Below are positions 5,562 to 41,216 of a DNA stretch of 64,000 nt, in pieces (within the stretch, counting starts at the first letter, position 1; the number at the start of each line of letters is the position of its first letter). The position numbers and the translations under genes are program-made. Below the pieces are notes generated by a model. The model made no database searches. It saw only the letters and a list, made by a program, of their open reading frames with translations, and had not been told where the DNA came from. The stretch spans positions 1 to 64,000 of the forward strand of contig JBMFRC010000006.1 of NCBI GenBank assembly GCA_049968235.1. Reading direction: 5' to 3'. The stretch is from Candidatus Hydrogenedens sp. (GTDB taxonomy: Bacteria; Hydrogenedentota; Hydrogenedentia; Hydrogenedentales; Hydrogenedentaceae).

Positions 5562-7460
5562 TTATTCTAAATCTATCCCACTTAATATTTTACTTACAAT
5601 AATAACAAAATTTTCTTCATTAGCTTCCCAATTTCTTGGCTCTTTGTTGTATATCATTAATATTTTATTCATTTTTTCACTCTTATTATGGCGAATAGAA
5701 GTAAAGATAAAAGATTCTGCTTCTAATGATTTTGTCCATAAATCGGAACGATAATCCTGTTGAGCAGAGCTGATTGTCAATATCTCAGACCATTCAAGGT
5801 TTTCGATAATAACCTTACAATTATGAATATGATATTTTTCTTCATCATTGACTATATAAATAGGCGACAAAATGTCATTTTCTCTGTCTATTTTCCAAAT
5901 CCCTACATTTTCTATTTTTAATGCGTTCTTCATTATTTCTAAAATGTTTCTCATTTTTTCTTCGTATGTTTTATTTTTATCATTGGAAATCAAAATCATA
6001 TCTCTTAATGCTATGACAAAACCCTGTATCTTTGATTTTTCTTTTGTATCAGCATCTATCTTTTTTATGTAATATTGATTTAACGATTCTATTTGTCTTT
6101 GGAGTCTGATATTTTCTCTGTATAAACTATTTACCGTTTCAATAGGAATTCCTCCTTTGCCTTCCTCGGAAAAGATAAATATGCTTTTATCTTTTTCTGT
6201 TTTGAATTCTTTGCCCGATATACCTTCTTTGTCAGTTTTTATATCTACGGTCCAAAATTTCCAGAAATATAAAATAGAGTATATTTTGTTCATTAATGTT
6301 TCATATTCAATAATCCAGAAATGTATGGGTGATTCTTGTCCTTCGACTTTTGGATTTTCCAACCAATGCGATATTTCTTTAATAGGATTTGTCAATAGAT
6401 AGCCCAGCAGAATTGCCAAAAGAACAATTACAAAAAAACAGATTAAAAATAAAAAAATAATATTCCTGTTTGTATTCGTTATATCGGAACTTTGTGGAAT
6501 ATTAAAAACACATATTAATGGAATGTTATACATAAATAAATATTCTTGCACTACAAGCAAACCATGTATTGTTTTCTGGAAATAAGGAGTTTCTCTTCTT
6601 TTATTTAATATGATATTTTTTATTTCATCAGGAAGATTTTGTAAAGAAGATGAGCGAACAATATCACGATTTGAAACACTTTCCATTCCCAACTTGCAGA
6701 CAATATACTTATCACTAAGGATATATGTATATACTGAACAATCTCTATATATATCCGATATAATAGTCTGCAACCATGACCAATCTATTTCCCATGATAC
6801 CACTGAAAATGGAGAATCATCGAACCCAATAGCCATAGCCAATCTCGAATTTATAGAAGGTCCAATTTCATTTATTTCGGGGGATGTAAACCAAATTTTA
6901 GGTATCCCTTCTCTATTCTGCATATTTTGTTGTAAACATAATGCAACAGATTCTTTATACCATTCATTATTTGTCATACTCTGGTCAGGAGATACCTCTT
7001 CCACTTCTTCATCCAATAATTGTGTTCCATCTTCTGTCCATGTAGCTGTTTTTTTTATAAAGCCTTTAGCCCCACCTGTAGTAAGAGAGACCGTTTTCCA
7101 ACCTGTATTTGCACGAAGAATTTTATACTCATATTTATTCGATAATACTAACTCAAAAGATTTTATAAACTTGTTTTTTTGTAATATTGTTGCAAAAAAA
7201 AGATTTAATAATATTCTGTCTGTTGTATTAATTGTTTTTTTAGATAATGATGTTCTAAGGGTTTCAATAATGTCACATAATTGTTCATCCGATTTTTCTA
7301 TTCTTTCTAAAGATATTTTATAATTGCTTTTTGTAATGGAATCGAAACTTGTAGAGTTGTAAAAAACAACATCCTTTTTCCAGAATGAAATAAATATAAT
7401 GGATACGAACAAAAAACAGATTATAAATATTACAATTATAATACCTCTTATAAGAATCAT
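5562..7460 (-). CDS. Two-TM sensor-like membrane protein (extracytoplasmic domain plus cytoplasmic coiled-coil and GAF-like domain; no output domain)
   Basis: 632 aa. There is an N-terminal TM helix, a loop of about 290 aa, then a second TM helix. A coiled-coil region follows (RENIRLQRQIESLNQYY), and the C-terminal ~150 aa look GAF-like. No kinase, GGDEF or HD motifs are seen. Confidence 0.4.
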   Translation of the reverse strand: MILIRGIIIVIFIICFLFVSIIFISFWKKDVVFYNSTSFDSITKSNYKISLERIEKSDEQLCDIIETLRTSLSKKTINTTDRILLNLFFATILQKNKFIKSFELVLSNKYEYKILRANTGWKTVSLTTGGAKGFIKKTATWTEDGTQLLDEEVEEVSPDQSMTNNEWYKESVALCLQQNMQNREGIPKIWFTSPEINEIGPSINSRLAMAIGFDDSPFSVVSWEIDWSWLQTIISDIYRDCSVYTYILSDKYIVCKLGMESVSNRDIVRSSSLQNLPDEIKNIILNKRRETPYFQKTIHGLLVVQEYLFMYNIPLICVFNIPQSSDITNTNRNIIFLFLICFFVIVLLAILLGYLLTNPIKEISHWLENPKVEGQESPIHFWIIEYETLMNKIYSILYFWKFWTVDIKTDKEGISGKEFKTEKDKSIFIFSEEGKGGIPIETVNSLYRENIRLQRQIESLNQYYIKKIDADTKEKSKIQGFVIALRDMILISNDKNKTYEEKMRNILEIMKNALKIENVGIWKIDRENDILSPIYIVNDEEKYHIHNCKVIIENLEWSEILTISSAQQDYRSDLWTKSLEAESFIFTSIRHNKSEKMNKILMIYNKEPRNWEANEENFVIIVSKILSGIDLE

Positions 7461-7520: not shown

Positions 7521-9680
7521 ATGTTTACATTTTTATTATTATCTTTAACTCTTTTCCATCAATCTCAAGAACAACCAATTGAGAATATAACAGTAACAAA
7601 AGAATCGTTTATGAATTTCAGAACTTGTTTTCAAACTTCTCAGGATTTCGACCCTTTAATGGATATAGCATCAGATGTAGCCATTGTATATGGAACATCA
7701 CATGATTTTCAGGAAAAAATAACCAGTTGGAGAGAACAAGGATATCGAACTGCTTATATGACCGGGATTTCCTGGGGTAATTATGCAAGTTATTATCAAA
7801 CAGAAAATGGATTAAAAAAGGAAGAGATACAAACAGATAAAACTGGTAAACTATGGATGCATGGGCACAGCACTACTGTTGGTTATAATGTTCCTACACC
7901 CAACTATGTTGAATATATTAAAACTATATTAATACCTCCATTAGAAAACCGTGTAGAAAGTATATACTTAGAAGAACCTGAATTTTGGGCAGTTACAGGA
8001 TGGAGTGATGCTTTCAAACAACTCTGGGAAAAATATTATGGTGAGCCATGGTCTCCCCCTAATCAATCCATTGAAACACAGTACAAAGCCAGTTTATTAA
8101 AATATAAATTGTATACAAATGTTTTAACAGAAGTATTTAAATTTGTAAAAGAATATGCAAAGAAAAATAATTTTCAAATAGGTTGTTATGTTCCTACACA
8201 TTCTTTAATTAACTATGCCCAATGGCGAATTGTAAGTCCGGAGTCACGATTGACGCAGATTGAATATTGTGATGGCATAATTGCTCAGGTATGGACAGGA
8301 ACAGCACGCTCAAAACACCATTATAAAGGTATTGCCCGGGAAAGGACTTTTGAGACAGCATATTTAGAATATGCACAAATGGTTGGGATGGTTTCATCTA
8401 CACAAAAGCATCTTATTTTCCTCGCTGACCCCATTGAGGATAATCCCAACTACGATTGGCATGATTATAAATACAACTACGAATGTACTGTATTGGCATC
8501 ATTATTATTCCCAGAAGTTTCCACATTTGAAGTAATGCCTTGGCCTGAAAGAATTTTCAAAGGTAAATACTCAAAATCTAAAGAAGAACGGGATATAAAA
8601 ATAAATATTATTCCTGAGTTTGCAACGGAACTGCTCACTATAATTAATACATTAAATGATATGAAACAGGAAAAAGTCGAGTGGATTTCCGGTAATTATC
8701 CTATAGGAGTAATAGTATCCGACACATTGATGTTTCAACGGGCAGAACCCTATCCAAGTCATCCCAATTTGAACTGTTTCTATGGAGTAGCAACACCCCT
8801 TATCAAAAATAGTATCCCATTAAAAATTATACAAATGGAGCATTTATTGACCTACCAGCCTCTTAAAAATATAAAAATTTTATTACTAACCTATGAAGGG
8901 CAAAAACCATTAAATAAAGAGTATCACAATATTATTAGAGATTGGGTAATAAACGGAGGAAGTTTACTTATTATTGATGATAATTCAGACCGATATAATG
9001 AACTTAATAATTGGTGGAAAAATGAAGGATACAATTCGCCGCTTGAACACTTAATCAAAACTCTCTGGGGTGATAAAGAACCTGATGAGGATATGACGCA
9101 AGTAGGTAAAGGATATGTTCGGTGGATAAAACGTAGTCCATCTATATTAAGTCTTGATAATGAGGGAGCAGAACACCTGTTAAATTGGGTAAAGGAGTTA
9201 TCTAATAAATCAGGAATAAATGTGGATTATAAGAATTACATTCACTTAAAAAGGGGGCCTTATCATATTTGTTCAGTTCTGGATGAATCTGTATCTGATT
9301 TACCTTATAAAATATCGGGTAAATTTATCAATCTTTTCAATCCTGAATTAAAAGTTGAAGAAGATGTTTTGTTGTATCCTTCTAATCGTGCTTTGCTTTT
9401 AGACATCAATTCTCTGCAATCAAAGAAAAGAGTTCCGTCCATAATTGCTTCTGCAGGGAGGATAAGAAGTCAAAAAGTAGGAGGGAATCGGTTTCATTTT
9501 ACTGTACGCGGACCTTCAGGAATACCAGGTAAAGTTGTTATTTTCTATGAGAAACAACCACAAAAAATTGTAACATCAGATATGACAGAGTTCCAACAAT
9601 ATTATGATAGTAAAAACCATTTACTTTATATTGATTTTACCCATCAGGGTAAGGACATTCATTTTGAGATTGACTTGTAA
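7521..9680 (+). CDS. Large secreted hypothetical protein with signal peptide
   Basis: 719 aa with a hydrophobic N-terminal leader (MFTFLLLSLTLFHQSQEQ). It is rich in aromatic residues, like glycan-active enzymes, but no catalytic family is recognised. It sits divergent to the sensor-like gene. Confidence 0.5.
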   Translation: MFTFLLLSLTLFHQSQEQPIENITVTKESFMNFRTCFQTSQDFDPLMDIASDVAIVYGTSHDFQEKITSWREQGYRTAYMTGISWGNYASYYQTENGLKKEEIQTDKTGKLWMHGHSTTVGYNVPTPNYVEYIKTILIPPLENRVESIYLEEPEFWAVTGWSDAFKQLWEKYYGEPWSPPNQSIETQYKASLLKYKLYTNVLTEVFKFVKEYAKKNNFQIGCYVPTHSLINYAQWRIVSPESRLTQIEYCDGIIAQVWTGTARSKHHYKGIARERTFETAYLEYAQMVGMVSSTQKHLIFLADPIEDNPNYDWHDYKYNYECTVLASLLFPEVSTFEVMPWPERIFKGKYSKSKEERDIKINIIPEFATELLTIINTLNDMKQEKVEWISGNYPIGVIVSDTLMFQRAEPYPSHPNLNCFYGVATPLIKNSIPLKIIQMEHLLTYQPLKNIKILLLTYEGQKPLNKEYHNIIRDWVINGGSLLIIDDNSDRYNELNNWWKNEGYNSPLEHLIKTLWGDKEPDEDMTQVGKGYVRWIKRSPSILSLDNEGAEHLLNWVKELSNKSGINVDYKNYIHLKRGPYHICSVLDESVSDLPYKISGKFINLFNPELKVEEDVLLYPSNRALLLDINSLQSKKRVPSIIASAGRIRSQKVGGNRFHFTVRGPSGIPGKVVIFYEKQPQKIVTSDMTEFQQYYDSKNHLLYIDFTHQGKDIHFEIDL

Positions 9681-13582: not shown

Positions 13583-15517
13583 ATGTCAGTTCAAGAACCA
13601 AAAATAAGAATACTTCCTGAAGAGATAACAAATAAAATCGCTGCGGGAGAAGTTGTTGAAAAACCGGCATCTGTAGTTAAAGAACTTATTGAAAATAGTA
13701 TAGATGCCGGTGCCAAACATATTACAATTCGTCTATCTGCATCAGGTTTAAGACTCATCGAAATTATTGATGATGGTATTGGAATGTCAGAACAGGATGC
13801 AATTCTTGCTATAGAGAGACACGCAACAAGTAAGATTACAACGTCTAAGGACCTTGAATCGATACATACCTTTGGATTTCGTGGTGAAGCATTAAGTAGT
13901 ATTTCAGCGGTATCACAGTTCGTTTTAACCACAAAACGCTCGCAAGATAACACCGGCACACAAATTGTCGTTCATGGAGGCATATTAAAATCCGTCTCCC
14001 CGATAGGTAGCCCACAAGGAACTAAGATATCGGTAAATCGTCTTTTTTTTAATACGCCTGTAAGATTAAAATTTTTAAAAGGTTTAACAACGGAATTAAG
14101 TCATTGTATTGACATCGTCCAGAAATATGTCCTTTCTCATGAAAATATCGGATTTAAACTATTTCACAATGATAAACTTCTTTTTGATATACCTCCTGAC
14201 ATGAATTTGTATAATCGTATCTCTCTTATTTGGGGTAAATCTACGATTTCTGAGATGCTTCATATAAAACCGATAACACATAACCTCTTCTCTAATGAAT
14301 CTGAAATGGTACCTGTTCATATTTATGGATACATTGGATTGCCTTCGCTTACCCGTTCCCATCGTTCCCATCAGTTATTTTTTGTCAATAAAAGACCTAT
14401 TTATAGTCGAACTTTACAATATAGTCTGGAAGAAGCATATAGAAACCTTATTATGGTTGGAAGGTATCCTGTGGCTATTCTTTTTATAGAACTTCCCCCA
14501 CAATGGATTGATGTCAATATTCATCCTACAAAAAAAGAAATTAAATTTAGAGATGAAAGAATTATTTCAAAACATATTTCAACCACTCTTCGTAATCAGT
14601 TATCTTTGATTCCGGACCAGAAACATTACACTTCCTCGCAAATAAATATACAAACAACCATAAATCGCCACATAAACCCTACTGTCTCTTCTAACGATAA
14701 TATAGATACTCCATCGGTATTTTTAAATAAACTTAATAATCATACACTTCCTGAAATTACTAAGGATTTAGTAGAAAATGAAAAAATAGAAACTCAACAA
14801 AAAAGTATATCCTTCGATACTAACCTCTTCTCTAATACAGAAAGAGATGATGTCTCTACTTCTTATTTTGATGATACACAAGAACAGCAGGAGCCTACTA
14901 CCCTTCACCCCTCGCCTATTTTTTCTGAATTTATTCCCGGAGAGGAAATACCCATACAAGTCTTTGATTCTTATTTAGTTCTACCTGAGAAAGACCGTAT
15001 TTTAATTATTGACCAACATGCACTTCATGAACGACTAAATTTTGAGCAGTTAAAGAAACAATTGCAAAATAAGGATTTTGTATTTCAACGGCTTGTTATA
15101 CCGCTTCTTATTGAAGTTCCATCGAATTATTCAAAACTTTTAGAAGATAAAAAAGAAATATTTCAGAAGATAGGTATTGATATTGAACCGTTTGGAGAGA
15201 ACACATTTCAAATAACATCTATATGTGAATTATATGACGAGGGTAAAATAAAAGATACTATTTTTGAACTACTTGAAGAAATGGTGCAGGGAGATTTATT
15301 TGAAAAAGAAAATTATTTTGAATCCCTATTGAGTATTGCAACAAAAGCATGTAAGAAATCGGTCAAGGCAGGTGATAAATTAGAACCTATGGAGCGATTA
15401 TACTTAATTAAGGGATTTAAATCATTAACACCTCCTTATACATGCCCTCATGGAAGACCCATTTTAATAGAATTAACCTTGCAACAAATGGAAAAAAGTT
15501 TCCGGAGAAGGCAATAA
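13583..15517 (+). CDS. mutL: DNA mismatch repair protein MutL
   Basis: N-terminal GHKL ATPase motifs (ILPEEITNKIAAGEVVEKPASVVKELIENSIDAGA; GFRGEALSSI) and a C-terminal dimerisation domain. Confidence 0.95.
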   Translation: MSVQEPKIRILPEEITNKIAAGEVVEKPASVVKELIENSIDAGAKHITIRLSASGLRLIEIIDDGIGMSEQDAILAIERHATSKITTSKDLESIHTFGFRGEALSSISAVSQFVLTTKRSQDNTGTQIVVHGGILKSVSPIGSPQGTKISVNRLFFNTPVRLKFLKGLTTELSHCIDIVQKYVLSHENIGFKLFHNDKLLFDIPPDMNLYNRISLIWGKSTISEMLHIKPITHNLFSNESEMVPVHIYGYIGLPSLTRSHRSHQLFFVNKRPIYSRTLQYSLEEAYRNLIMVGRYPVAILFIELPPQWIDVNIHPTKKEIKFRDERIISKHISTTLRNQLSLIPDQKHYTSSQINIQTTINRHINPTVSSNDNIDTPSVFLNKLNNHTLPEITKDLVENEKIETQQKSISFDTNLFSNTERDDVSTSYFDDTQEQQEPTTLHPSPIFSEFIPGEEIPIQVFDSYLVLPEKDRILIIDQHALHERLNFEQLKKQLQNKDFVFQRLVIPLLIEVPSNYSKLLEDKKEIFQKIGIDIEPFGENTFQITSICELYDEGKIKDTIFELLEEMVQGDLFEKENYFESLLSIATKACKKSVKAGDKLEPMERLYLIKGFKSLTPPYTCPHGRPILIELTLQQMEKSFRRRQ

Positions 15518-16494
15518 TGGATGCGATAGCAGTAGTAGGACCCACTGCATCCGGAAAAACCGCTCTTTCTATTCGATTGGCAGAAGAATTCAATAGTGAA
15601 ATTATATCGGCGGATTCTATGCAATTCTATCAAGGGATGGAAATTGGGACGGCGGTTCCTTCATTAGAAATACGAAAAAGGATACCCCACCATTTTTTAG
15701 TTTTTGTTCCTCCCGATTTTCATATGAATGCGGGATTATTTCAGGATTTAGCAAGAAAAGAATTGCATAGAATCAAAGATGAAGGTAGAATTCCTATTAT
15801 TGTAGGAGGTTCAGGTCTTTATTTATCCGCTTTAATTGATGGATTATTTGAAGGTCCAGCATCCTCCGACGCGATAAGGAATAAACTAAAAAAACAATTA
15901 TCGGAACAGGGTCCTGAGTATCTTATACAAATATTAAAAGATGTTGACCCTATATACTTTTCTAAATTGACAAGTCCCAACGATATTACTCGTGTTATTC
16001 GTGCATTAGAAGTATATGAGTTAACAGGAATCCCTTTTTCAGAATGGCATAAAAAACATCAACAACAAGCACAACCATTACATGTATTACAAATCGCTTT
16101 AAACTGGGAACGGGATATTCTCTATGAGCGAATCAATAACCGGGTGGATGAAATGATTGAAAAAGGTTGGATAGATGAAGTGAAAACTTTATTAGAAAAA
16201 GGTTATGAAAAAGATATACACCGATTAAAAGCGTTAGGATATAGAGAGATTCTTTATTTTTTGAAGGGAACACAGAATATTTCAGAAACTATAGCCAATA
16301 TAAAATTGCATCATCGCAGATATGCTAAACGCCAGATAACATGGTTTAGGTCTGATAAACGGGTGCAATGGATTGATGCAAACACTGACAAATCTATGAA
16401 TGACTTACTAAATTCTATTTATTCTCTAATAGAAAGTTTTAATAAAAATAGTATTTCCGAAAACTATCGCTGTTTTTTATTTAGAAATTATTAG
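15517..16494 (+). CDS. miaA: tRNA dimethylallyltransferase
   Basis: P-loop VVGPTASGKT and the QFYQGMEIGTA motif. The start is taken at the ATG in a TAATG overlap with the mutL stop. The mutL-miaA adjacency is the classic arrangement. Confidence 0.9.
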   Translation: MDAIAVVGPTASGKTALSIRLAEEFNSEIISADSMQFYQGMEIGTAVPSLEIRKRIPHHFLVFVPPDFHMNAGLFQDLARKELHRIKDEGRIPIIVGGSGLYLSALIDGLFEGPASSDAIRNKLKKQLSEQGPEYLIQILKDVDPIYFSKLTSPNDITRVIRALEVYELTGIPFSEWHKKHQQQAQPLHVLQIALNWERDILYERINNRVDEMIEKGWIDEVKTLLEKGYEKDIHRLKALGYREILYFLKGTQNISETIANIKLHHRRYAKRQITWFRSDKRVQWIDANTDKSMNDLLNSIYSLIESFNKNSISENYRCFLFRNY

Positions 16495-16619
16495 TAATTT
16501 ATTTTATTTTTTTCTGCTCTAATATCAAGCGGTTTTTTGCAAATTACATATCAATAATGTTAAATTTTAATCAACTATTTATTAAATTATTTTATTATTT
16601 ATATTCGTTAGGTTTTTAC

Positions 16620-17267
16620 ATGGAGCAGTATAAAGAAGTATTTCATTTTTTTAGAAATTATAAAAAAGATAACATAATACAAATACGATGGCATGGTAGG
16701 GGTGGACAGGGTGCTGTAACATCTGCCAAAATTCTTGCGGTAGCGGGATTTCTCTCGGGATACAAAGGTGTTACTTCAGCCCCGTTTTTTGGTGCGGAGA
16801 GAAGGGGTGCTCCTGTTATAGCAACAACAAAATTGAGTAAAGATACAATTTATGATTTTAGCCAGATTGATTCACCGGATGTTGTAGTTATACTTGATAA
16901 CACCCTATTAAAATCTACAGATATTACACAGGGATTAAAAACTAATGGATGGGTAATTCTAAATACTCCCTCTCATCTGGAATATAACTTTCCACAGAAA
17001 CACTTTAATTTTATAATAGTAAATGCAACACAAATAGCAGAAGAATCGGGTCTTATCTATGCAGGGATACCATTAGTAAATACACCTATGTTAGGAACTT
17101 TTCTCCATGTCTTACCCCATATAGATTTTTCACATATCCATAGAGCATTAGAACAATTTTTTTCATCGACAGCCGTATCAAAGAATTTTGACGTTATTTC
17201 CCGTGTTTATAAAGAGTGTATTGTAGAAAAAACAGAAAGTAATGTTCAGGAGTTACAACAATCATGA
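16620..17267 (+). CDS. porG: Pyruvate/2-oxoacid:ferredoxin oxidoreductase, gamma subunit
   Basis: WHGRGGQGAVTSAKILA...FGAERRGAPV is typical of PorG/VorG. An internal Met (MEQYK) is preferred over the ORF-track start at 16557. Confidence 0.85.
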   Translation: MEQYKEVFHFFRNYKKDNIIQIRWHGRGGQGAVTSAKILAVAGFLSGYKGVTSAPFFGAERRGAPVIATTKLSKDTIYDFSQIDSPDVVVILDNTLLKSTDITQGLKTNGWVILNTPSHLEYNFPQKHFNFIIVNATQIAEESGLIYAGIPLVNTPMLGTFLHVLPHIDFSHIHRALEQFFSSTAVSKNFDVISRVYKECIVEKTESNVQELQQS

Positions 17268-17575
17268 ATACACGCGATTGTGGGCATATAATCTCAGCTT
17301 CATCCCCTGCCAAAGGAGAAGCCGGAAAAACGGGTGAATGGAGGACACAAAGACCTGTTCTAAATAGAGAAAAATGTTTAGCAGTAAAAGCCAATAAAGA
17401 TATATGTTATCAATGCTGGGCGTTTTGTCCCGAATGTGCTATAGAAAGAAAACCGGGAGGTGCCGTAGATTTGACTTATTGTAAAGGTTGTGGAATTTGT
17501 GCACAAATTTGTCCTGCGGACGCTATACAAATGGAAAAAGAATATGACAGTTCAGAACAAAGAAAAAACGATTAA
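17264..17575 (+). CDS. porD: Pyruvate/2-oxoacid:ferredoxin oxidoreductase, delta (ferredoxin-like) subunit
   Basis: 103 aa with two Cys clusters (CYQCWAFCPECA; CKGCGICAQICP) forming a 2x[4Fe-4S] binding domain. It overlaps porG by ATGA. Confidence 0.85.
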   Translation: MNTRDCGHIISASSPAKGEAGKTGEWRTQRPVLNREKCLAVKANKDICYQCWAFCPECAIERKPGGAVDLTYCKGCGICAQICPADAIQMEKEYDSSEQRKND

Positions 17576-18827
17576 TATTCATAATCACTTTTCTAACCCT
17601 AAAGCCTATCCTCCAGGGCAACATGTCATTACTGGAAATCAATCCGCAAGTATAGGAGCATTTCTTTGTGGTGTTCAGGTTATTGCTGCATACCCTATTA
17701 CTCCACAGTCGCCTGTTGTAGAGGAATTGGCTAAATTTGTTGAAGATGGCGAATTATCGGCGGAATTCGTTCCTGTGGAAAGTGAACACAGTGCTATGGG
17801 GGTATGTATAGGTGCATCAATTGCGGGGGCACGCGTTTTTACAGCAACGAGTGCAAACGGATTGGCATATATGTGTGAACAACTTCATTGGGCATCGGGT
17901 TCCCGTTTACCCATCGTAATGGCTTGTGTAAATCGGGCAATGGCAGCACCGTGGAGTGTTCTTAATGACCAACAGGATTCGATGTCTCAGAGAGATGCTG
18001 GATGGATACAATTATTCTGTAAAGATAATCAAGAAATAATTGACACTGTTATACAAGCATATCGCATTGCAGAAAAGGTATATCTTCCGGTTATGGTTTG
18101 TTATGACGGTTATATCCTTTCTCACACAGTAATGCCTGTTGAAGTTCCGGATGGGAATAAGGTAAAAAAATTCTTACCCATGTACATTCCTCATACTCCA
18201 TTGGATATAAATAAGCCGGTTAATATTAATCCTGTTACTCTCGCAGAACCCCGATATAATGCAGAAGGGGTTCTCTGCCACGGATATATGGAACACAAAT
18301 ACCTACATCACAAAGCTCTTCGAGATAGTCTGGAGATAATTGAACAAGTTGACGATGAATATGAAAATACTTTTGGAAGAAGTGCTGGAGGATTATTTTC
18401 ACTCTATAAAACCGATGATGCAGAGGCTATTATTATTTGTGCTGGCAGTTTGTCTAAAATGGTCATTTTAGTTATAGATATGTTGCGTGAACAAAATGTT
18501 CCTATAGGATTGGTTGCTTTAAGAGCATATAGACCTTTCCCTAATCAAAAATTATCCGAAGCGTTGAAGAATAAAAAATTAATATTAACCATAGATAAAA
18601 GCCTTAGTTATGGATACCAGGGTCCTATATGCATTGATGTAAAATCCTGTTTGTTCGAAGCAGGTATCTCATCTACTGTCATCAGTTTTATTGCGGGACT
18701 TGGCGGAAGAGATATAAAACCTTATGAAATTGCAGAAATAGCCTACAATTACTGGAAGAAGTACTTAGATAAAAAATTAACTCTTGAATATATATATGAA
18801 TCCCAATGGATTAACTGTAAATATTAG
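17544..18827 (+). CDS. porA: Pyruvate/2-oxoacid:ferredoxin oxidoreductase, alpha subunit
   Basis: PorA-like N-terminus (GNQSASIGAFLCGVQVIAAYPITPQS). The start is taken at the in-frame Met at codon 19 of the 17490 ORF. The longer ORF cannot be excluded. Confidence 0.85.
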   Translation: MTVQNKEKTINIHNHFSNPKAYPPGQHVITGNQSASIGAFLCGVQVIAAYPITPQSPVVEELAKFVEDGELSAEFVPVESEHSAMGVCIGASIAGARVFTATSANGLAYMCEQLHWASGSRLPIVMACVNRAMAAPWSVLNDQQDSMSQRDAGWIQLFCKDNQEIIDTVIQAYRIAEKVYLPVMVCYDGYILSHTVMPVEVPDGNKVKKFLPMYIPHTPLDINKPVNINPVTLAEPRYNAEGVLCHGYMEHKYLHHKALRDSLEIIEQVDDEYENTFGRSAGGLFSLYKTDDAEAIIICAGSLSKMVILVIDMLREQNVPIGLVALRAYRPFPNQKLSEALKNKKLILTIDKSLSYGYQGPICIDVKSCLFEAGISSTVISFIAGLGGRDIKPYEIAEIAYNYWKKYLDKKLTLEYIYESQWINCKY

Positions 18828-18836
18828 GAAAGTAGT

Positions 18837-19742
18837 ATGATATCTATTCTTGAATTACCTGTTGATGAATATATGTTACCGGGCAACCGTTCCTGTGCGG
18901 GATGCGGTCTTGGAATAGGCTTGAGATATATCTTAAAAGCATTAGAAGGAAAATGTGTCATGACTGTTCCGGCTTCCTGCCTTACAGTATTAGGTGGGAT
19001 GTATCCTGTCTCTTCTGTTTCGGTACCATGGATTAACTCTGTTTTCCCGGGAACTGCTGCTATGGCATCAGGCGTTGTCGCAGGTTTGAAAGCATTGAAA
19101 AAAGAAGATATTACAGTATTAGCCATGGCAGGAGATGGCGGAACTTATGATATTGGCATACAGGCTCTCAGTGGTGCAGCAGAAAGAAATGCTAACTTTT
19201 TATTCATTTGTTATGATAATGAAGCCTATATGAATACAGGGACACAACGGTCAGGTGCAACTCCGAAAGGGGTTAAGACGACAACGACCCCTATTTTAGG
19301 GAAACTACACAGTCCCAAAGATATGGGTCAAATTATGGAAGCACATCGCATTCCTTATGTTGCAACAACATGTGTATCATATCCCACGGATTTATATGAC
19401 AAAGTAAAAAAAGCAAAAGATATATATGGGTTAAGATATATTCATCTCTGTGTCCCCTGTCCTTCTGGCTGGCAATATGACCCTCAAAATACGGTAACAA
19501 TAGGACAATTAGCTGTAGAAACAGGTGCCGTTGTTCTTTATGAAATTGAACATGGGGTATTTCGGTTAACAGGGAGAAGCAGACGGCTTGCTAAAGATGG
19601 TAAATTAAAGCCCATTAATGAGTATTTATCTACTCAAGGACGATTTGGAAATATTAACTCGGATGCATTAGCGGAATTACAGGAATACATATATAAACGA
19701 TGGAATGAATTTGTAGCAAAAGATAGAACACTTGTTGAATGA
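18837..19742 (+). CDS. porB: Pyruvate/2-oxoacid:ferredoxin oxidoreductase, beta (TPP-binding) subunit
   Basis: TPP-binding motif GDGG...NEAYMNTGTQRS and an N-terminal Cys cluster CAGCG. Confidence 0.88.
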   Translation: MISILELPVDEYMLPGNRSCAGCGLGIGLRYILKALEGKCVMTVPASCLTVLGGMYPVSSVSVPWINSVFPGTAAMASGVVAGLKALKKEDITVLAMAGDGGTYDIGIQALSGAAERNANFLFICYDNEAYMNTGTQRSGATPKGVKTTTTPILGKLHSPKDMGQIMEAHRIPYVATTCVSYPTDLYDKVKKAKDIYGLRYIHLCVPCPSGWQYDPQNTVTIGQLAVETGAVVLYEIEHGVFRLTGRSRRLAKDGKLKPINEYLSTQGRFGNINSDALAELQEYIYKRWNEFVAKDRTLVE

Positions 19743-19743
19743 A

Positions 19744-21042
19744 TTATATTGTTTTATTCACCCCACAACATTTCTTAAATTTCTTTCCACTCCCACAGGG
19801 GCATAAATCATTCGGGCTAATATTGAGAAGGGAATTTACTTTTTGCTTTGAACGAATCTCATTCATAATATTTGCAGGTGCCTGCCCTTTACGAAGTTGG
19901 TTAGCCATATATTGCATATAGGCTTCGGTATGTTTGAAGAAATGAATATATCCTTTGCATAAATAGTTCTGCTTTGCATCTTCACCCGGAAGGCTTATAA
20001 AACGATGTTTTGGACAACCTCCATTACAAACAAAGAGATACTTACACCTCCGACATTTATTTGTTAAGTGCGATTTTTCTACTGCAAAATTATTCTGGAA
20101 TTCTGAATTTATCATTTCAGAGAGTGATGTTTCTAAAATATTTCCAAGATAATATTCAGGATATACAAAATGGTCACAGGAATATACATTTCCATTAGAT
20201 TCTAAGATAATTGCTTTTCCACAATTTTTACTATGAACACACAAAGGAGGTTCTATACCCATCCAACCTGCAAGGGTTATATCAAACATCTGTACAAATA
20301 TTTTTCCTACATCCTCCCGAACCCACTCATCAAAAACGGCATTAAGAAAATACCCCCAGTGTTCCGGTAATAATGTCCAATCCGTTGTTTTCGCTTCTTC
20401 GTTCCCCGGATGAACCAGTTTTAACCCATCAGAACGACAATTCCCTATTCTTTCTACAATAGGAATAAATTGCAAGTATTGACTTCCTATTGTTTTTAAG
20501 AATTTATATATTTCTTTTCCTCTCATCCAATTTCTTCGATGAATACAAGTAAGTGTATTAAATTCTACACCCGCTTCTTTTAATAATTGAATTACCTCTA
20601 CTACTTTATTAAATGTTCCATGTCCATTACTATCTATTCTGAACGAATTGTGTATTTCTTCAGGTCCATCGATAGAGATACCCACTAAAAAGTGATTATC
20701 CCTTAGAAAATTTATCCAATTTTCATCTAATAATGTTCCATTTGTTTGTAGCGTATTCAATATTTTTTTAGAACCTTTATACTTTCCCTGTAATTCAATA
20801 ACTTTTTTAAAGAACGGAAGTCCTGCCAGAGTGGGCTCTCCTCCCTGCCACCCAAAAATAATTTCTTCAGCAGGATTATTTTTAATATAGTCTTCTATAT
20901 AATGGTTGAGGACATCATCTGTCATTATTAATTGTTTTGTAAAAATATTCTTCTTTTCGTAATAAAAACAATAGATACATCTTAAATTACAAGCAGGACC
21001 CGCAGGCTTTGCCATTACATGAAAAGGAACTTTTTTTTCCAT
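19744..21042 (-). CDS. Radical SAM / SPASM-domain maturase-like enzyme (anSME family) with C-terminal SEC-C motif
   Basis: CNLRCIYC (CxxxCxxC) lies near the N-terminus. SPASM-type C-terminal Cys clusters are present (CxxxxxC...CRRCKYLFVCNGGCP). The extreme C-terminus is CPCGSGKKFKKCCG, a SEC-C metal-binding motif. Confidence 0.8.
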   Translation of the reverse strand: MEKKVPFHVMAKPAGPACNLRCIYCFYYEKKNIFTKQLIMTDDVLNHYIEDYIKNNPAEEIIFGWQGGEPTLAGLPFFKKVIELQGKYKGSKKILNTLQTNGTLLDENWINFLRDNHFLVGISIDGPEEIHNSFRIDSNGHGTFNKVVEVIQLLKEAGVEFNTLTCIHRRNWMRGKEIYKFLKTIGSQYLQFIPIVERIGNCRSDGLKLVHPGNEEAKTTDWTLLPEHWGYFLNAVFDEWVREDVGKIFVQMFDITLAGWMGIEPPLCVHSKNCGKAIILESNGNVYSCDHFVYPEYYLGNILETSLSEMINSEFQNNFAVEKSHLTNKCRRCKYLFVCNGGCPKHRFISLPGEDAKQNYLCKGYIHFFKHTEAYMQYMANQLRKGQAPANIMNEIRSKQKVNSLLNISPNDLCPCGSGKKFKKCCGVNKTI

Positions 21043-21129
21043 AAGTTTTGCATTATTTGTTATTATATTGTTAACTTATATTATGTAATTATAAGCAAAA
21101 AGAAACCTTAATTATAAAGGAGTTAATAT

Positions 21130-21555
21130 ATGGGATATGAAATTAAAAAGGTAGATGTTTGGTCAGTAGAAATATTAGACCAACCTGGTGGATTAAGTAC
21201 TGTCCTTCAACCTTTAGTGGAGGCAGGTGCTAATTTTAATTTTTTATTAGCCCGTAGAACCTCTTCGGGTAAGGGAGTAGCCTTTTTATGTCCATTGGAA
21301 GGAGCCACTATTCTTAAAAAAGCAAAACAGATGGGCTTTCAGAAGAATAAAGATATTGCAGTGATAAAAATAATCGGACCGGATAAAGCGGGGTTGGGTT
21401 TGCTTATATTGAATACCCTTAGTGCATCAGGAATTAACATTCGGGGTATATCCGCTTCATCTATCGGAAAGAATTGTAATATCTGGATTTCTTTTGATAA
21501 CAGCAAGGATGCAGGTAAAGCATTAAAATTAATCCAAAAAATTCTGGTAAAATAG
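21130..21555 (+). CDS. Tandem ACT-domain small regulatory protein
   Basis: 141 aa with two repeats of an ACT-like beta-alpha-beta-beta-alpha-beta pattern (VEILDQPGGLSTVLQPL...; IKIIGPDKAGLGLLILNTL). A strong AAGGAG RBS is present. It lies upstream of the Cys/Met-metabolism gene. Confidence 0.55.
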   Translation: MGYEIKKVDVWSVEILDQPGGLSTVLQPLVEAGANFNFLLARRTSSGKGVAFLCPLEGATILKKAKQMGFQKNKDIAVIKIIGPDKAGLGLLILNTLSASGINIRGISASSIGKNCNIWISFDNSKDAGKALKLIQKILVK

Positions 21556-38206: not shown

Positions 38207-39610
38207 TTATTTTTTTAGTTCTGGCAAACTTGCAGCTGCAATAGATTGTCCTACTCTTCTATTTTTTTCGTCCGGCAATTGGACATTAATTTTTTCATTT
38301 ATCTCAGGAAACTCTGTTTTTAATACTTTTAGACATTCTTCTAACATGATAGGACCTCCATTGCCGGAGGTACACCGTCCTAAAATGAGTACATGCTTTA
38401 TATCATAGAAATCATTGTAATGAGCAAGAGTATATCCCAAATAGGTACCCATAGTTTGCCAAATTTTAATAACTTCGGGATTCCCTTTTTCCAATTCTTC
38501 TTGTATTAGTTTCAATTTTTCTGCATCGGTGATATTTTCAGGAATTTTTATGCCTGCTTTCGGAGCAAGACGAAACACACATTGTTGAGAAAAATAATTG
38601 GCACCTACTCCCCTATCTCCTGACCATTCTTCTACGGGAGCATCGGGATTATAATCCACAGGGGCAAAGGCAAGTTCATTTAACCAATCTGTTATATTCC
38701 CTGCAGTGGTAACATAGCCACCCGCTTCACTGGAACCCATAGCAATTCCTAATACAGCATTGTCACCAATAGACATCGAACCTGCCAATGCTGTAACCTC
38801 TCCATCATTAACAACAACCAGCGGTACTCCCAGTTCTTTTGACATACGATTAAACAATTCATGCACCTCACCAAAACGTTCTTTAGGAACCCCTCTAAAT
38901 AATGATGCTATCATGGCACGATTATTGACATATACTCCAGCAGCACTTCCACCGACAGCATCCAATCTCGGCATTTTTGATGCGGCTGTTTTTATGGCTG
39001 TCATTATTTCATTATAGTGATAGTTGGGGTCTGTCTGTTTACGGGGTTCCCATATTGTCTCTTCGCTATATACCACTTCTCCATCTATGACAGCGGATGC
39101 TTTACGGTCAGAAGCACCTAAATCAAATCCGACACGACAACCATCCATGTGCCTACCCAAACGTTGTGATGTCTCGTTTGCATGAGGGACATCATTTTCC
39201 GATTTACATGGAACTATCGTAAATGGATTTTCATACACATCTTCTCCCATAAATTTATAGTCGAAGGCTCTCGCTCCTTGTAAAGAATAAGTTGCCTCTA
39301 AATAACGAATTAATGGTTTTGGAGCATAAACATATACCTTCCATCCTCCTTTTTGCCATAGTAAAAACTTTAATATTCTTTCTATATAATAAAATCCTGA
39401 TTCAAATAAAGGATGTCCTTCTGGAAATACTTCTGTCTCAAAACAAGATATAGAATTGTTTAACCTTTCTAAAGCAATAATAACTTTTACTGCATCTTTT
39501 GTTTCTTTCACTTTCTTTTTAAATTGGTCGTTTACTAATTTTGGTGGAATAAAACCGGGGTCCATAGGAGGAACTATTTGTGGTTTTACTAACATCCAAT
39601 CCAGATTCAT
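38207..39610 (-). CDS. ASKHA-superfamily sugar-kinase-like protein (ROK-like, lacks Zn Cys motif; ~150 aa N-terminal extension)
   Basis: It has a phosphate-1-like GFDLGAS motif and a VVVNDGEVTALAG motif resembling ROK ENDANAAALGE. No CxCGxxGC motif is present. Confidence 0.45.
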   Translation of the reverse strand: MNLDWMLVKPQIVPPMDPGFIPPKLVNDQFKKKVKETKDAVKVIIALERLNNSISCFETEVFPEGHPLFESGFYYIERILKFLLWQKGGWKVYVYAPKPLIRYLEATYSLQGARAFDYKFMGEDVYENPFTIVPCKSENDVPHANETSQRLGRHMDGCRVGFDLGASDRKASAVIDGEVVYSEETIWEPRKQTDPNYHYNEIMTAIKTAASKMPRLDAVGGSAAGVYVNNRAMIASLFRGVPKERFGEVHELFNRMSKELGVPLVVVNDGEVTALAGSMSIGDNAVLGIAMGSSEAGGYVTTAGNITDWLNELAFAPVDYNPDAPVEEWSGDRGVGANYFSQQCVFRLAPKAGIKIPENITDAEKLKLIQEELEKGNPEVIKIWQTMGTYLGYTLAHYNDFYDIKHVLILGRCTSGNGGPIMLEECLKVLKTEFPEINEKINVQLPDEKNRRVGQSIAAASLPELKK

Positions 39611-40682: not shown

Positions 40683-41216
40683 CTATTTTATTTTTACAGA
40701 TTCCGTTAACTTTATTCCATATTCAAATACTTCTTTATTCTGGTCATGGACTTTCCTGGGTAAATTAGAAAATATTGCATTTTGCCAGCATTCATAGGGA
40801 ATATTCATGTAATTACTTAAAGCACCTAAGAGACATATATTAAAATTTTTTTGATTTACAGGCAGATATTTTTCTCCTTTGAGAAGTGATAGTTCCCTAC
40901 TTTCTCCGACAATAAGAGAAATATCTATCACGATCCCATCTGGTTTTAACCGATACAAATTGTTTTCCAATTCGTCAGGATGCATTAAAACAAGAAAATC
41001 TGCCTCTCCATATGGAACCATAGGGCTAAAAACCTTTTTCCCGAAACGCACATCACTGGATACAGAGCCCCCTCGTTGACTCATACCATGTATTTCACTT
41101 TTTCGGACATCATATCCAGCAAGAAACGCTGAATCCGCCAGGATATTTGAAGATAAAATAACTCCAGTTCCACCAATACCTGTTAAGACAATATTAATTA
41201 CTTCCTGTTGCGACAT
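40683..41216 (-). CDS. iorB: Indolepyruvate:ferredoxin oxidoreductase, beta subunit
   Basis: 177 aa with an IorB/PorG-like fold (INIVLTGIGGTGVILSSNILA...GMSQRGGSV). It lies immediately downstream of iorA. Confidence 0.75.
   Translation of the reverse strand: MSQQEVINIVLTGIGGTGVILSSNILADSAFLAGYDVRKSEIHGMSQRGGSVSSDVRFGKKVFSPMVPYGEADFLVLMHPDELENNLYRLKPDGIVIDISLIVGESRELSLLKGEKYLPVNQKNFNICLLGALSNYMNIPYECWQNAIFSNLPRKVHDQNKEVFEYGIKLTESVKIK

What the first reader, a model, noticed from the sequence alone, without database searches (positions are those of the whole stretch)
19744..21042. Orphan anSME-like radical SAM/SPASM maturase carrying a C-terminal SEC-C metal-binding tail
The protein has the anaerobic sulfatase-maturase architecture: CxxxCxxC close to the N-terminus and auxiliary-cluster cysteines in the SPASM region. 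No sulfatase, peptide precursor or other obvious substrate gene is adjacent. The neighbours are porB, which converges on it, and an ACT-domain gene. The protein ends with CPCGSGKKFKKCCG, the SEC-C zinc motif known from the SecA C-terminus. Its substrate is unknown and could be encoded elsewhere, or could be a small unannotated peptide nearby.
Basis: partly seen in the sequence, partly recalled or inferred. Interest (0 to 1): 0.5.

Follow-up and report, generated by a model that had tools for sequence, protein, structure and literature searches.

The report
Sulfatase maturase with SecA-type tail
This gene encodes an ordinary-looking anaerobic sulfatase-maturating radical SAM enzyme whose C-terminus carries the small metal-binding domain that SecA uses to dock on ribosomes and SecB; the combination turns out to be widespread but unstudied, and may place the enzyme where its unfolded substrates emerge.

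Summary
ORF 19744-21042 (-) encodes a 432-aa protein with a CxxxCxxC radical SAM motif, a full SPASM domain and a C-terminal SEC-C motif (CPCGSGKKFKKCCG).

The "orphan" reading is overstated:
- The protein passes NCBIfam's anaerobic sulfatase maturase equivalog (502 bits, cutoff 349).
- Its model superposes on anSMEcpe (TM 0.91), and every cluster cysteine is conserved.
- NCBI already names it and its orthologs anaerobic sulfatase maturase in Candidatus Hydrogenedens MAGs.
- Standing alone is normal for this family. Only 20 of 73 tailed relatives and 11 of 29 tail-less relatives have a sulfatase within 10 kb. Eight tailed ones sit directly beside a sulfatase.
- No precursor peptide is hidden nearby.

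The tail is not a peculiarity of this gene. Essentially all close homologs have it, as do 34 of the 150 nearest 50%-identity clusters, across more than ten phyla. It is under purifying selection.

The tail most likely acts as a tether to the ribosome exit site or to SecB, as shown for SecA and AscA/YecA. That would give the enzyme access to unfolded sulfatases, but this is inferred, not shown. Whether a sulfatase exists elsewhere in this genome could not be tested here. Interest is modest.

The parts
19744..21042 (-). Complete CDS (432 aa plus stop codon) of the anaerobic sulfatase-maturating enzyme with a C-terminal SecA-like metal-binding domain
   Evidence: ORF list. TIGR03942 scores 502 bits against a cutoff of 349. 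PDB anSMEcpe matches with E 4e-65. Foldseek target-normalised TM-score is 0.91 to 4k39.
20968..20991 (-). Radical SAM cluster motif C18-x3-C22-x2-C25
   Evidence: Aligns with C15/C19/C22 of anSMEcpe. Invariant in 32 homologs.
20497..21000 (-). Radical_SAM core domain (residues 15-182)
   Evidence: Pfam PF04055, E 2e-21.
19957..20223 (-). SPASM domain (residues 274-362) holding most of the eight auxiliary-cluster cysteines (C268 lies just upstream of it): C268, C274, C289, C343 (Aux I positions) and C330, C333, C339, C362 (Aux II positions), plus D290
   Evidence: TIGR04085 matches residues 274-362, E 1e-19. All eight Cys and D290 are invariant in alignment A1. They align with the corresponding Cys and Asp of anSMEcpe.
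19813..19887 (-). Linker (residues 386-410): a conserved 'QAPANIM' segment and helix, followed by a stretch that varies in sequence and length
   Evidence: The variable columns are visible in A1. AlphaFold gives a helix at 391-404 and pLDDT falls to 62-71 after residue 400. Tail-less relatives stop shortly after the PPANVM segment.
19762..19812 (-). SEC-C / SecA-like metal-binding domain (residues 411-427: NDLCPCGSGKKFKKCCG)
   Evidence: Pfam PF02810, E 2e-8. Matches YchJ C-terminal MBD 9l6b_C and SecA MBD 1sx0/1tm6/1ozb. N411, C414, C416, G417, S418, G419, K423, C425 and C426 are invariant. dN/dS is about 0.2 against the closest orthologs.
21062..21089 (-). Promoter-like site (ATTACA-16-TATAAT, 10 of 12) in the 87-bp divergent spacer upstream of the CDS
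   Evidence: Consensus scan. This is weak evidence, because the region has fewer such sites than shuffled sequence.

Best explanation
The gene encodes a functional anaerobic sulfatase-maturating enzyme (anSME). This is a radical SAM enzyme with three [4Fe-4S] clusters that oxidises the Cys or Ser of the C/S-x-P/A-x-R motif in unfolded sulfatase polypeptides to C-alpha-formylglycine. Its substrates are most likely sulfatases encoded elsewhere in the Candidatus Hydrogenedens genome. Attached to the catalytic core through a roughly 25-residue linker is a SecA-like metal-binding domain (MBD). By analogy with SecA and AscA/YecA, the MBD most likely docks the enzyme on the ribosome near the exit tunnel (uL23), on SecB, or on both. 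The maturase would then meet sulfatase chains while they are still unfolded, before folding or export. Shown here: family membership by sequence and by predicted structure, conservation of the cluster and catalytic residues, identity of the tail as a SecA-type MBD, purifying selection on the tail, its wide distribution, and genomic linkage of tailed relatives to sulfatases. Inferred: the presence of sulfatases in this genome, metal binding by the tail, and ribosome or SecB tethering. My estimates are about 0.85 for 'it is an anSME acting on sulfatases' and about 0.4 for the tether mechanism of the tail. The 0.55 below is a compromise between those two estimates, not their product.
For: Enzyme identity:
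- TIGR03942 scores 502 bits against a cutoff of 349. The next non-anSME family, DynA, scores only 224 bits.
- The protein aligns with anSMEcpe over residues 6-385 (E 4e-65), with all RS, Aux I and Aux II cysteines and the CDH motif conserved.
- The AlphaFold model has pLDDT 89.7. Its best PDB matches are all anSMEcpe chains, TM 0.91.
- NCBI names it and its orthologs anaerobic sulfatase maturase.
- Core dN/dS is about 0.1, and the por-anSME-ACT synteny holds down to 56% identity.
- Of deduplicated tailed relatives, 20 of 73 have a sulfatase within 10 kb and 8 are directly adjacent.
- Some Hydrogenedentes MAGs are reported to carry FGly-dependent sulfatases (PMC9723792; PMC10866078).

Tail:
- Pfam SEC-C matches at E 2e-8.
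- The tail is identical to the YchJ C-terminal MBD at 16 of 20 positions and to the E. coli SecA MBD at 13 of 20. This includes the four metal ligands and the conserved Ser and aromatic residue (10.1101/613315).
- The MBD is invariant while the linker varies.
- The tail has lower pLDDT, as expected for a tethered module.
- Published data show that the SecA tail co-sediments with 70S ribosomes in a manner that depends on the MBD cysteines, and that it crosslinks to uL23 (PMC6620043).
- AscA/YecA binds SecB (KD about 150 nM) and ribosomes only when its MBD is present. Those authors propose that MBDs are a portable module for bringing functions to the Sec and ribosome machinery (10.1101/2020.07.21.215244).
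- Independent domain fusions point the same way. P0188 is SurA_N + parvulin PPIase + anSME core + MBD in one ORF, and P0172 is the same without the MBD.
Against: - No sulfatase was found in the 64-kb window, in the about 10-kb flanks of any Hydrogenedens-lineage ortholog, or in the short extensions beyond the window ends. The substrate in this genome is therefore not demonstrated.
- Tail presence does not track the export route of neighbouring sulfatases. Sulfatases beside tailed maturases include Tat-like, Sec- or lipoprotein-like and apparently signal-less forms, and the same mix occurs beside tail-less maturases (the signal predictor was crude). This argues against a role specific to Sec export.
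- The characterised anSMEs (anSMEcpe, the Bacteroides type) work without a tail, so it is not needed for catalysis.
- No paper in the searchable library links SEC-C to anSME.
- Whether Hydrogenedens has SecB, or a SecA with an MBD, was not determined.
Confidence: 0.55

Rival explanations
1. The enzyme is the same, but the tail is a redox or metal module and not a tether. It could be an oxidant-sensitive Cys4 Zn/Fe switch that regulates or protects an oxygen-labile enzyme. Alternatively it could be a rubredoxin-like Fe(Cys)4 centre on a flexible arm that passes electrons to or from the auxiliary and radical SAM clusters.
For: SecA-like MBDs bind iron preferentially in vivo (10.1101/613315). In Salmonella YchJ, whose C-terminal MBD is identical to this tail at 16 of 20 positions, the C-terminal Cys149/Cys150 pair forms a ROS-induced intermolecular disulfide (PMC13377102). 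Tailed maturases are common in lineages that include many aerobes, such as Acidobacteriaceae, Verrucomicrobiota and Armatimonadota. The tail shows no association with the substrate's export route.
Against: No redox-carrier role has been shown for any SecA-type MBD. The polybasic surface (KKFKK) is conserved together with the ligands, as in the ribosome- and SecB-binding MBDs. A variable, low-confidence linker is unusual for a fixed electron-transfer geometry. The chaperone fusions P0188 and P0172 point to substrate handling.
Confidence: 0.2
2. The protein is not a sulfatase maturase in this organism. It would instead modify another protein or a ribosomal peptide, making it a true orphan. The MBD would serve that unknown pathway.
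For: No sulfatase is visible in any accessible Hydrogenedens-lineage sequence. The neighbourhood is housekeeping genes. SPASM enzymes related to anSME do act on peptides: DynA scores 224 bits and DarW 183 bits. The score to the Bacteroides-type equivalog PRK13745 (459) is below its cutoff of 484.
Against: The score to TIGR03942 is 150 bits above its cutoff and more than twice that of any RiPP family. There is no RiPP recognition element or leader-binding domain, since Pfam finds only Radical_SAM, SPASM and SEC-C, plus a sub-threshold Fer4_12 match over the radical SAM region. No conserved short ORF lies nearby. Tailed relatives sit directly beside sulfatases in eight independent loci. Standing alone is equally common for tail-less relatives (Fisher p 0.34).
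Confidence: 0.12
3. The tail is a polybasic anchor that binds the membrane or nucleic acid. It would localise the enzyme to anionic phospholipids near the translocon, or it has no current function.
For: The motif is strongly basic (KKFKK). In YchJ the equivalent lysines form a DNA-binding cluster (PMC13377102). Disrupting the SecA MBD affects SecA's membrane binding (10.1101/613315 abstract).
Against: A vestigial tail is excluded by invariance across phyla and by dN/dS of about 0.2. Simple charge-based binding would not need the invariant Cys, Ser and Gly scaffold. No DNA-binding context is apparent.
Confidence: 0.08

Closest known systems
anSMEcpe (Clostridium perfringens anaerobic sulfatase-maturating enzyme; PDB 4K36-4K39)
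   Same: It has the same fold (Foldseek target TM 0.91, rmsd about 3 A). Identity is 34-35% over residues 6-385. It has the same CxxxCxxC motif, and all eight auxiliary-cluster cysteines and the C-D-H/F segment align.
   Different: anSMEcpe ends at about residue 370 and has neither the PPANVM helix, the linker nor the MBD. The window protein is 62 residues longer at the C-terminus.
Bacteroides-type anaerobic sulfatase-maturation protein (NCBIfam NF010308 / PRK13745, 412-aa profile)
   Same: The profile aligns to residues 6-401, so it includes the C-terminal helix after the SPASM domain. Its score is 459 bits.
   Different: The score is below that model's cutoff of 484, and the profile ends before the MBD, so this is a different subfamily that carries an extra module.
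SecA C-terminal tail (flexible linker plus metal-binding domain)
   Same: It has the same C-x-C-x8-C-[CH] ligand pattern, the conserved Ser and aromatic residue, and a basic patch. Identity to the E. coli SecA MBD is 13 of 20 positions. In both cases the MBD lies at the extreme C-terminus after a poorly conserved linker.
   Different: The carrier is a radical SAM enzyme and not a translocation ATPase. Binding to ribosomes or SecB is untested here.
AscA/YecA and YchJ (other bacterial proteins carrying SecA-like MBDs)
   Same: A C-terminal MBD is appended to an unrelated functional domain. AscA is a chaperone whose MBD mediates ribosome and SecB binding. The YchJ C-terminal MBD is identical to this tail at 16 of 20 positions.
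   Different: The N-terminal domains differ (UPF0149, UPF0225). YchJ has been assigned a role in ROS-sensing transcription.
Eukaryotic formylglycine-generating enzyme (SUMF1/FGE)
   Same: It produces the same product (FGly) on the same sulfatase motif. From my own knowledge of the sulfatase literature, it acts on unfolded, newly translocated chains, so it works on the substrate before folding.
   Different: FGE has an unrelated fold and chemistry (copper- and oxygen-dependent) and is not homologous. This is a 'works like' comparison only.

Membership tests
Anaerobic sulfatase-maturating enzyme (anSME; TIGR03942) | Whole-protein score above the curated equivalog cutoff | tested here: met
   502.2 bits against a cutoff of 349.45, aligned over residues 8-381 and profile positions 1-362 of 363.
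Anaerobic sulfatase-maturating enzyme (anSME; TIGR03942) | N-terminal CxxxCxxC motif for the SAM-binding [4Fe-4S] cluster | tested here: met
   C18, C22 and C25 align with C15/C19/C22 of anSMEcpe and are invariant in 32 homologs.
Anaerobic sulfatase-maturating enzyme (anSME; TIGR03942) | SPASM domain with eight cysteines that fully ligate two auxiliary [4Fe-4S] clusters | tested here: met
   C268, C274, C289, C330, C333, C339, C343 and C362 are all invariant and align with the anSMEcpe cysteines. SPASM scores: TIGR04085 70 bits, PF13186 43 bits.
Anaerobic sulfatase-maturating enzyme (anSME; TIGR03942) | Conserved Asp directly after the third auxiliary-cluster Cys. It is the proposed catalytic base, D277 in anSMEcpe; that role is from my own knowledge of the 2013 structure paper. 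| tested here: met
   D290 in the motif S-C289-D290-H is invariant in A1 and aligns with the P-C-D-F segment of anSMEcpe.
Anaerobic sulfatase-maturating enzyme (anSME; TIGR03942) | anSME three-dimensional fold | tested here: met
   AlphaFold pLDDT is 89.7. The top eight PDB matches are all anSMEcpe chains, TM 0.86-0.91 normalised to the target. The RiPP maturases ChlB, CteB and SuiB score clearly lower.
Anaerobic sulfatase-maturating enzyme (anSME; TIGR03942) | A sulfatase substrate with a C/S-x-P/A-x-R motif encoded in the same genome | not testable with these tools
   There is none in the 64-kb window or in the accessible flanks of orthologs. The rest of the genome cannot be read. Indirect support: 20 of 73 tailed relatives have a sulfatase within 10 kb.
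Anaerobic sulfatase-maturating enzyme (anSME; TIGR03942) | SAM-dependent oxidation of Cys or Ser to formylglycine | not testable with these tools
   This requires a biochemical assay.
SecA-like metal-binding domain (SEC-C motif, PF02810) | Score above the Pfam gathering threshold | tested here: met
   34.4 bits against a threshold of 20.4, E 2e-8, residues 411-427.
SecA-like metal-binding domain (SEC-C motif, PF02810) | Ligand pattern C-x-C-x8-C-[C/H], with the conserved Ser (SecA S889) and aromatic residue (SecA Y893) | tested here: met
   C414, C416, C425 and C426 are the ligand positions, with S418 and F422. The alignment to SecA and YchJ MBD structures is, and the definition of the motif is.
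SecA-like metal-binding domain (SEC-C motif, PF02810) | Location at the extreme C-terminus after a poorly conserved flexible linker | tested here: met
   Residues of about 393-408 vary in sequence and length while the MBD is invariant. pLDDT is 62-71 in the tail against more than 90 in the core.
SecA-like metal-binding domain (SEC-C motif, PF02810) | Binds Zn or Fe, and binds ribosomes and/or SecB | not testable with these tools
   This is known only for SecA, AscA/YecA and YchJ. It needs biochemistry for this protein.
RiPP-type radical SAM/SPASM peptide maturases (DynA, DarE/DarW, sactisynthases and others) | Score above the family cutoff, an adjacent precursor peptide gene and usually a leader-recognition element | tested here: not met
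   The best score is DynA at 224 bits against a cutoff of 450, and all other families are far below their cutoffs. No RRE-type domain is found. No conserved short ORF lies beside the gene.

The most novel reading that the evidence does not exclude
MBD-tailed anSMEs are ribosome-associated enzymes that install formylglycine co-translationally, on sulfatase chains as they leave the exit tunnel. This would be a radical SAM enzyme acting on nascent polypeptides, and it would extend the proposed 'MBD toolkit' from chaperones and SecA to a protein-modifying enzyme. The SurA/PPIase-anSME-MBD fusions would be a more elaborate version of the same solution.
Probability: 0.3. Interest if true: 0.7.

Novelty: new variant of a known kind. 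Interest (0 to 1): 0.35.

Why it matters
Sulfatases are inactive until one residue is converted to formylglycine, and the converting enzyme can only reach that residue while the chain is unfolded. How bacterial anSMEs win this race against folding and export is not established. A large share of anSME-family proteins carries the same module that docks SecA and AscA on ribosomes and SecB: all close homologs of this one, and about a quarter of the nearest sequence clusters, across more than ten phyla. That gives a concrete, testable answer to the question. It also matters in practice. Heterologous production of active sulfatases, and of aldehyde-tagged proteins, often suffers from incomplete FGly formation, and a ribosome-tethered maturase might do better. 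For this window itself the result is mainly a clarification: the gene is a normal, correctly annotated anSME and not an orphan system.

Tried and rejected
1. Sulfatase in the window. A regex for C/S-x-P/A-x-R in all six frames, plus Pfam and NCBIfam scans of all long ORFs, found none.

2. Hidden precursor peptide. The 87-bp spacer 21043-21129 has no ORF. The 60-aa ORF 19739-19921 (+), whose ATG overlaps the porB stop codon, is antisense to the tail and is broken or lacks its ATG in orthologous loci. It is rejected as an artefact.

3. Sulfatase elsewhere in a Hydrogenedens genome.
- I examined about 10-kb flanks of orthologs at 81%, 66% and 56% identity and of other Hydrogenedentes-labelled relatives, and found none.
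- The metagenome scan added only the same syntenic region.
- Lookups of window-end proteins added only a few kb.
- Literature searches found sulfatases in other Hydrogenedentes MAGs but nothing for the genus.
- The question remains open.

4. Hypothesis that the tail marks maturases of Sec-exported sulfatases. It is not supported, because neighbouring sulfatases show mixed Tat-like, Sec-like and signal-less N-termini for both tailed and tail-less enzymes. The signal predictor was a crude hydrophobicity and RR heuristic.

5. Hypothesis that tailed forms are one clade. An NJ tree with Fitch parsimony on 126 cluster representatives gave 25 changes against 28.4 +/- 1.8 for shuffles. The tail is therefore either scattered or the tree is unresolved at this depth. 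This is not conclusive.

6. Tailed homolog in annotated E. coli genomes: none, only a weak match to a tail-less maturase.

7. Census of other MBD architectures. One literature search and a scan of 1.76 Mb of fetched loci gave nothing beyond maturase fragments.

8. Two literature searches for the classical AtsB and signal-peptide work returned nothing useful. Statements about that work rest on my own knowledge.
Full report
**1. What is there**

The ORF 19744..21042 on the minus strand (ATG start, 432 aa) exists as described.
- Pfam assigns Radical_SAM to residues 15-182, SPASM to 276-334 and SEC-C to 411-427. The SEC-C match has E 2e-8 and 34.4 bits, against a gathering cutoff of 20.4.
- The SEC-C pattern occurs once in the six-frame translation of the whole window.
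- porB (18837..19742, +) converges on the gene, with one base between the stop codons.
- An ACT-domain gene (21130..21555, +) diverges from it across an 87-bp spacer. That spacer contains one promoter-like site for the maturase, at 21089-21062.

The window has about 33% G+C. It belongs to Candidatus Hydrogenedens: a partial protein that is 100% identical is deposited under that name, and members of the same and of the neighbouring 90%-identity cluster are all named 'anaerobic sulfatase maturase [Candidatus Hydrogenedens sp.]'. Window-end proteins are found identically in the NCBI MAGs GCA_049971155.1 and GCA_049969095.1.

**2. The enzyme is an anSME**

- NCBIfam's equivalog TIGR03942 (anaerobic sulfatase maturase) scores 502 bits against a cutoff of 349. 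The best peptide-maturase family, DynA, reaches 224 bits against a cutoff of 450.
- The protein aligns with anSMEcpe (PDB 4K36) over residues 6-385 at E 4e-65.
- In that alignment C18/C22/C25 match the radical SAM cluster cysteines. C268, C274, C289 and C343, and C330, C333, C339 and C362, match the two sets of auxiliary-cluster cysteines. D290 matches the Asp that follows the third auxiliary cysteine. All of these are invariant in an alignment of 32 homologs.
- An AlphaFold model (mean pLDDT 89.7, pTM 0.86) has anSMEcpe chains as its eight best PDB matches (target-normalised TM 0.86-0.91). The RiPP maturases ChlB, CteB and SuiB come well behind.

**3. Is it an orphan?**

No sulfatase lies in the 64-kb window, judged both by motif scan and by Pfam and NCBIfam scans of all long ORFs.

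The gene sits in a housekeeping block: Tex, DksA-like, Lgt, MutL, MiaA, porGDAB, anSME, ACT, a Cys/Met PLP enzyme, DUF3299, FtsX/ABC, MscK, UvrC. This block is collinear in orthologous loci at 81%, 66% and 56% protein identity. The gene has therefore been inherited vertically in this position for a long time. It is under purifying selection, with dN/dS about 0.1 for the core.

To judge whether standing alone is unusual, I collected 117 loci from metagenomes and from species-representative genomes. I then built local HMMs for sulfatases and for the maturase.
- After removing duplicates, 20 of 73 tailed maturases and 11 of 29 tail-less maturases have a sulfatase within 10 kb (Fisher p 0.34).
- Eight tailed maturases are directly adjacent to a sulfatase: L051, L053, L054, L060, L074, L078, L083 and L109.

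A solitary maturase is thus the majority condition, and the tailed clade as a whole is clearly linked to sulfatases. From my own knowledge, Bacteroides thetaiotaomicron uses one maturase for many dispersed sulfatases, which fits this picture.

Other Hydrogenedentes MAGs have been reported to encode FGly-dependent sulfatases (PMC9723792 and PMC10866078). I could not read the rest of a Hydrogenedens genome, so the decisive check remains open.

**4. No hidden peptide**

The upstream spacer has no ORF. The only short ORF at the 3' end (19739-19921, +, 60 aa) is antisense to the conserved tail. It loses its ATG or its open frame in orthologous loci. It is an artefact.

**5. The tail**

The last 22 residues match solved SecA-type metal-binding domains:
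- YchJ C-terminal MBD (9l6b_C), E 3e-7, 16 of 20 positions identical.
- E. coli SecA MBD (1sx0), 13 of 20 positions identical.

The metal ligand positions are present (C414, C416, C425, C426). So are the Ser and the aromatic residue that Cranford-Smith et al. consider diagnostic, here S418 and F422 (10.1101/613315).

In the 32-sequence alignment, N411, C414, C416, G417, S418, G419, K423, C425 and C426 are invariant. The preceding 15 or so residues vary in sequence and length. This mirrors the flexible-linker-plus-MBD layout of the SecA tail. AlphaFold confidence drops from above 90 to 62-71 in the tail. Where synonymous sites are not saturated, dN/dS for the MBD is about 0.2.

**6. How common is the tail?**

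- Of the 120 best hits to the full protein, 115 carry the Pfam SEC-C flag. The four unflagged full-length ones also show the motif on inspection. This list is biased, because the tail itself helps to recruit hits.
- A search with the core alone (residues 1-393) against 1.84 billion cluster representatives found 1,675 clusters at E <= 1e-30. Of the best 150, 34 (23%) have the tail.
- Named genomes with tailed maturases include Hydrogenedentota, Acidobacteriota, Latescibacterota, Verrucomicrobiota, Bacteroidota, Ignavibacteria, Armatimonadota, Planctomycetota, Fidelibacterota, Gemmatimonadota, Dehalococcoidia/SAR202 and two Enterobacteriaceae, Superficieibacter and Buttiauxella.
- On a rough NJ tree the tail is scattered: 25 parsimony changes against 28.4 +/- 1.8 for shuffles. 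That is consistent with repeated gain and loss, but the tree is weak at this depth.
- Complete E. coli genomes have no tailed homolog.
- Two literature searches found no paper that discusses SEC-C together with anSME.

**7. What the tail probably does**

Published work provides the analogy:
- The isolated SecA tail co-sediments with 70S ribosomes, this depends on the MBD cysteines, and it crosslinks to uL23 beside the exit tunnel (PMC6620043).
- AscA/YecA is a chaperone whose MBD is required for binding SecB (KD about 150 nM) and ribosomes.
- The authors of that study propose that MBDs are a portable module that brings new functions to the Sec and ribosome machinery (10.1101/2020.07.21.215244).

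An anSME is a natural client for such a module, because its target residue is accessible only in the unfolded chain.

Two further observations fit this. Some family members are fused to a SurA-N chaperone domain and a parvulin PPIase: P0172, and P0188, which also carries the MBD. P0188 is a continuous ORF seen on two contigs.

One prediction failed. If the tail served Sec export specifically, sulfatases next to tailed maturases should carry Sec signals. Instead they are a mix of Tat-like (RRxF), Sec- or lipoprotein-like and signal-less proteins, as are those next to tail-less maturases (heuristic predictor).

I therefore favour ribosome docking, which would help whatever the later route of the sulfatase. 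I give the tether idea about 0.4.

Rivals:
- A redox or ROS switch, as reported for the C-terminal cysteines of YchJ (PMC13377102).
- An iron redox centre that serves the clusters (iron binding).
- A charge-based membrane or nucleic-acid anchor.

**8. Comparison with what is known, and novelty**

The catalytic part is a member of the anSME family by every sequence and structure criterion I could test. The two functional criteria, a substrate in the same genome and enzymatic activity, are untestable here. The tail is a member of the SecA-like MBD family by the same standard.

The combination is already visible in databases, as precomputed Pfam architectures and NCBI names. As far as the searchable literature shows, it has not been described or explained. 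I therefore class it as a new variant of a known kind, of modest interest. The gene in this window is ordinary, and the tailed clade as a whole is the interesting object.

Noticed in passing
P0188 (locus L115 8001-10160), P0172, P0223: Some anSME-family proteins are fused at the N-terminus to a SurA-N chaperone domain and a parvulin-type PPIase. P0188 (719 aa) also ends with a SEC-C/MBD. P0188 is a continuous ORF on two contigs.
   Followed up: partly
L018 14673-16421 (-) and 16414-17886 (-): Two sulfatases lie about 3.4 kb from a tail-less maturase. Both start directly with the sulfatase domain and have no signal peptide, so they look like cytoplasmic sulfatases. Similar signal-less sulfatases lie next to tailed maturases in L051, L065, L068 and L110.
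   Followed up: partly
window 42906-44324 (-) and 44490-45914 (-): Two tandem paralogous B12-binding radical SAM genes share long identical stretches (for example IFGKKIRFCSPERIIEEIEWLNHKY). They score below the cutoff of every named NCBIfam family; the best is ApyD at 164 bits against 750.
   Followed up: partly
window 45957-48032 (-) and 48037-50130 (-): Two adjacent ORFs of about 690 aa lie downstream of the B12-radical SAM pair and have no Pfam family. One has a faint match to membrane mannosyltransferase/Agl23-like models. This may be a glycan or lipid modification cluster.
   Followed up: no
window 5562-7460 (-), 7521-9680 (+), 38207-39610 (-), 61727-62803 (+): These large ORFs (632, 719, 467 and 358 aa) have no Pfam or NCBIfam match at E <= 1e-3.
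   Followed up: no
window 19740-19746: porB and the maturase converge with one base between their stop codons, and no terminator-like hairpin was found in 19400-21400. Transcripts from the two strands may overlap.
   Followed up: no
window 40683-42822 (-) versus 16557-19742 (+): A second 2-oxoacid:ferredoxin oxidoreductase set (a fused POR_N/TPP_enzyme_C protein of 542 aa plus a gamma subunit) is present in addition to the four-gene porGDAB operon.
   Followed up: no
window 15442-16494 (+) and 17490-18827 (+): The longest-ORF starts of miaA (350 aa) and porA (445 aa, GTG) overlap the upstream genes. Gene calls in the ortholog L001 are shorter (325 and 427 aa), so the true starts are probably further downstream.
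   Followed up: no
L077 (Superficieibacter sp.) and L110 (Buttiauxella sp.): Tailed maturases also occur in Enterobacteriaceae. L110 has two signal-less sulfatase-like ORFs within 10 kb. Complete E. coli genomes lack this form. These could be tractable hosts for experiments.
   Followed up: partly
L033 / P0012 versus P0024: Maturases that are 83% identical are labelled 'Nitrospirales' in one MAG and 'Candidatus Hydrogenedentes' in another. MAG taxonomy labels around this clade are therefore unreliable.
   Followed up: no
P0143 (563 aa): This cluster representative joins a signal peptide and the N-terminal third of a sulfatase domain (PF00884, residues 58-196) to a complete maturase core. It could be a real fusion or a frameshifted sulfatase-maturase gene pair.
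   Followed up: no
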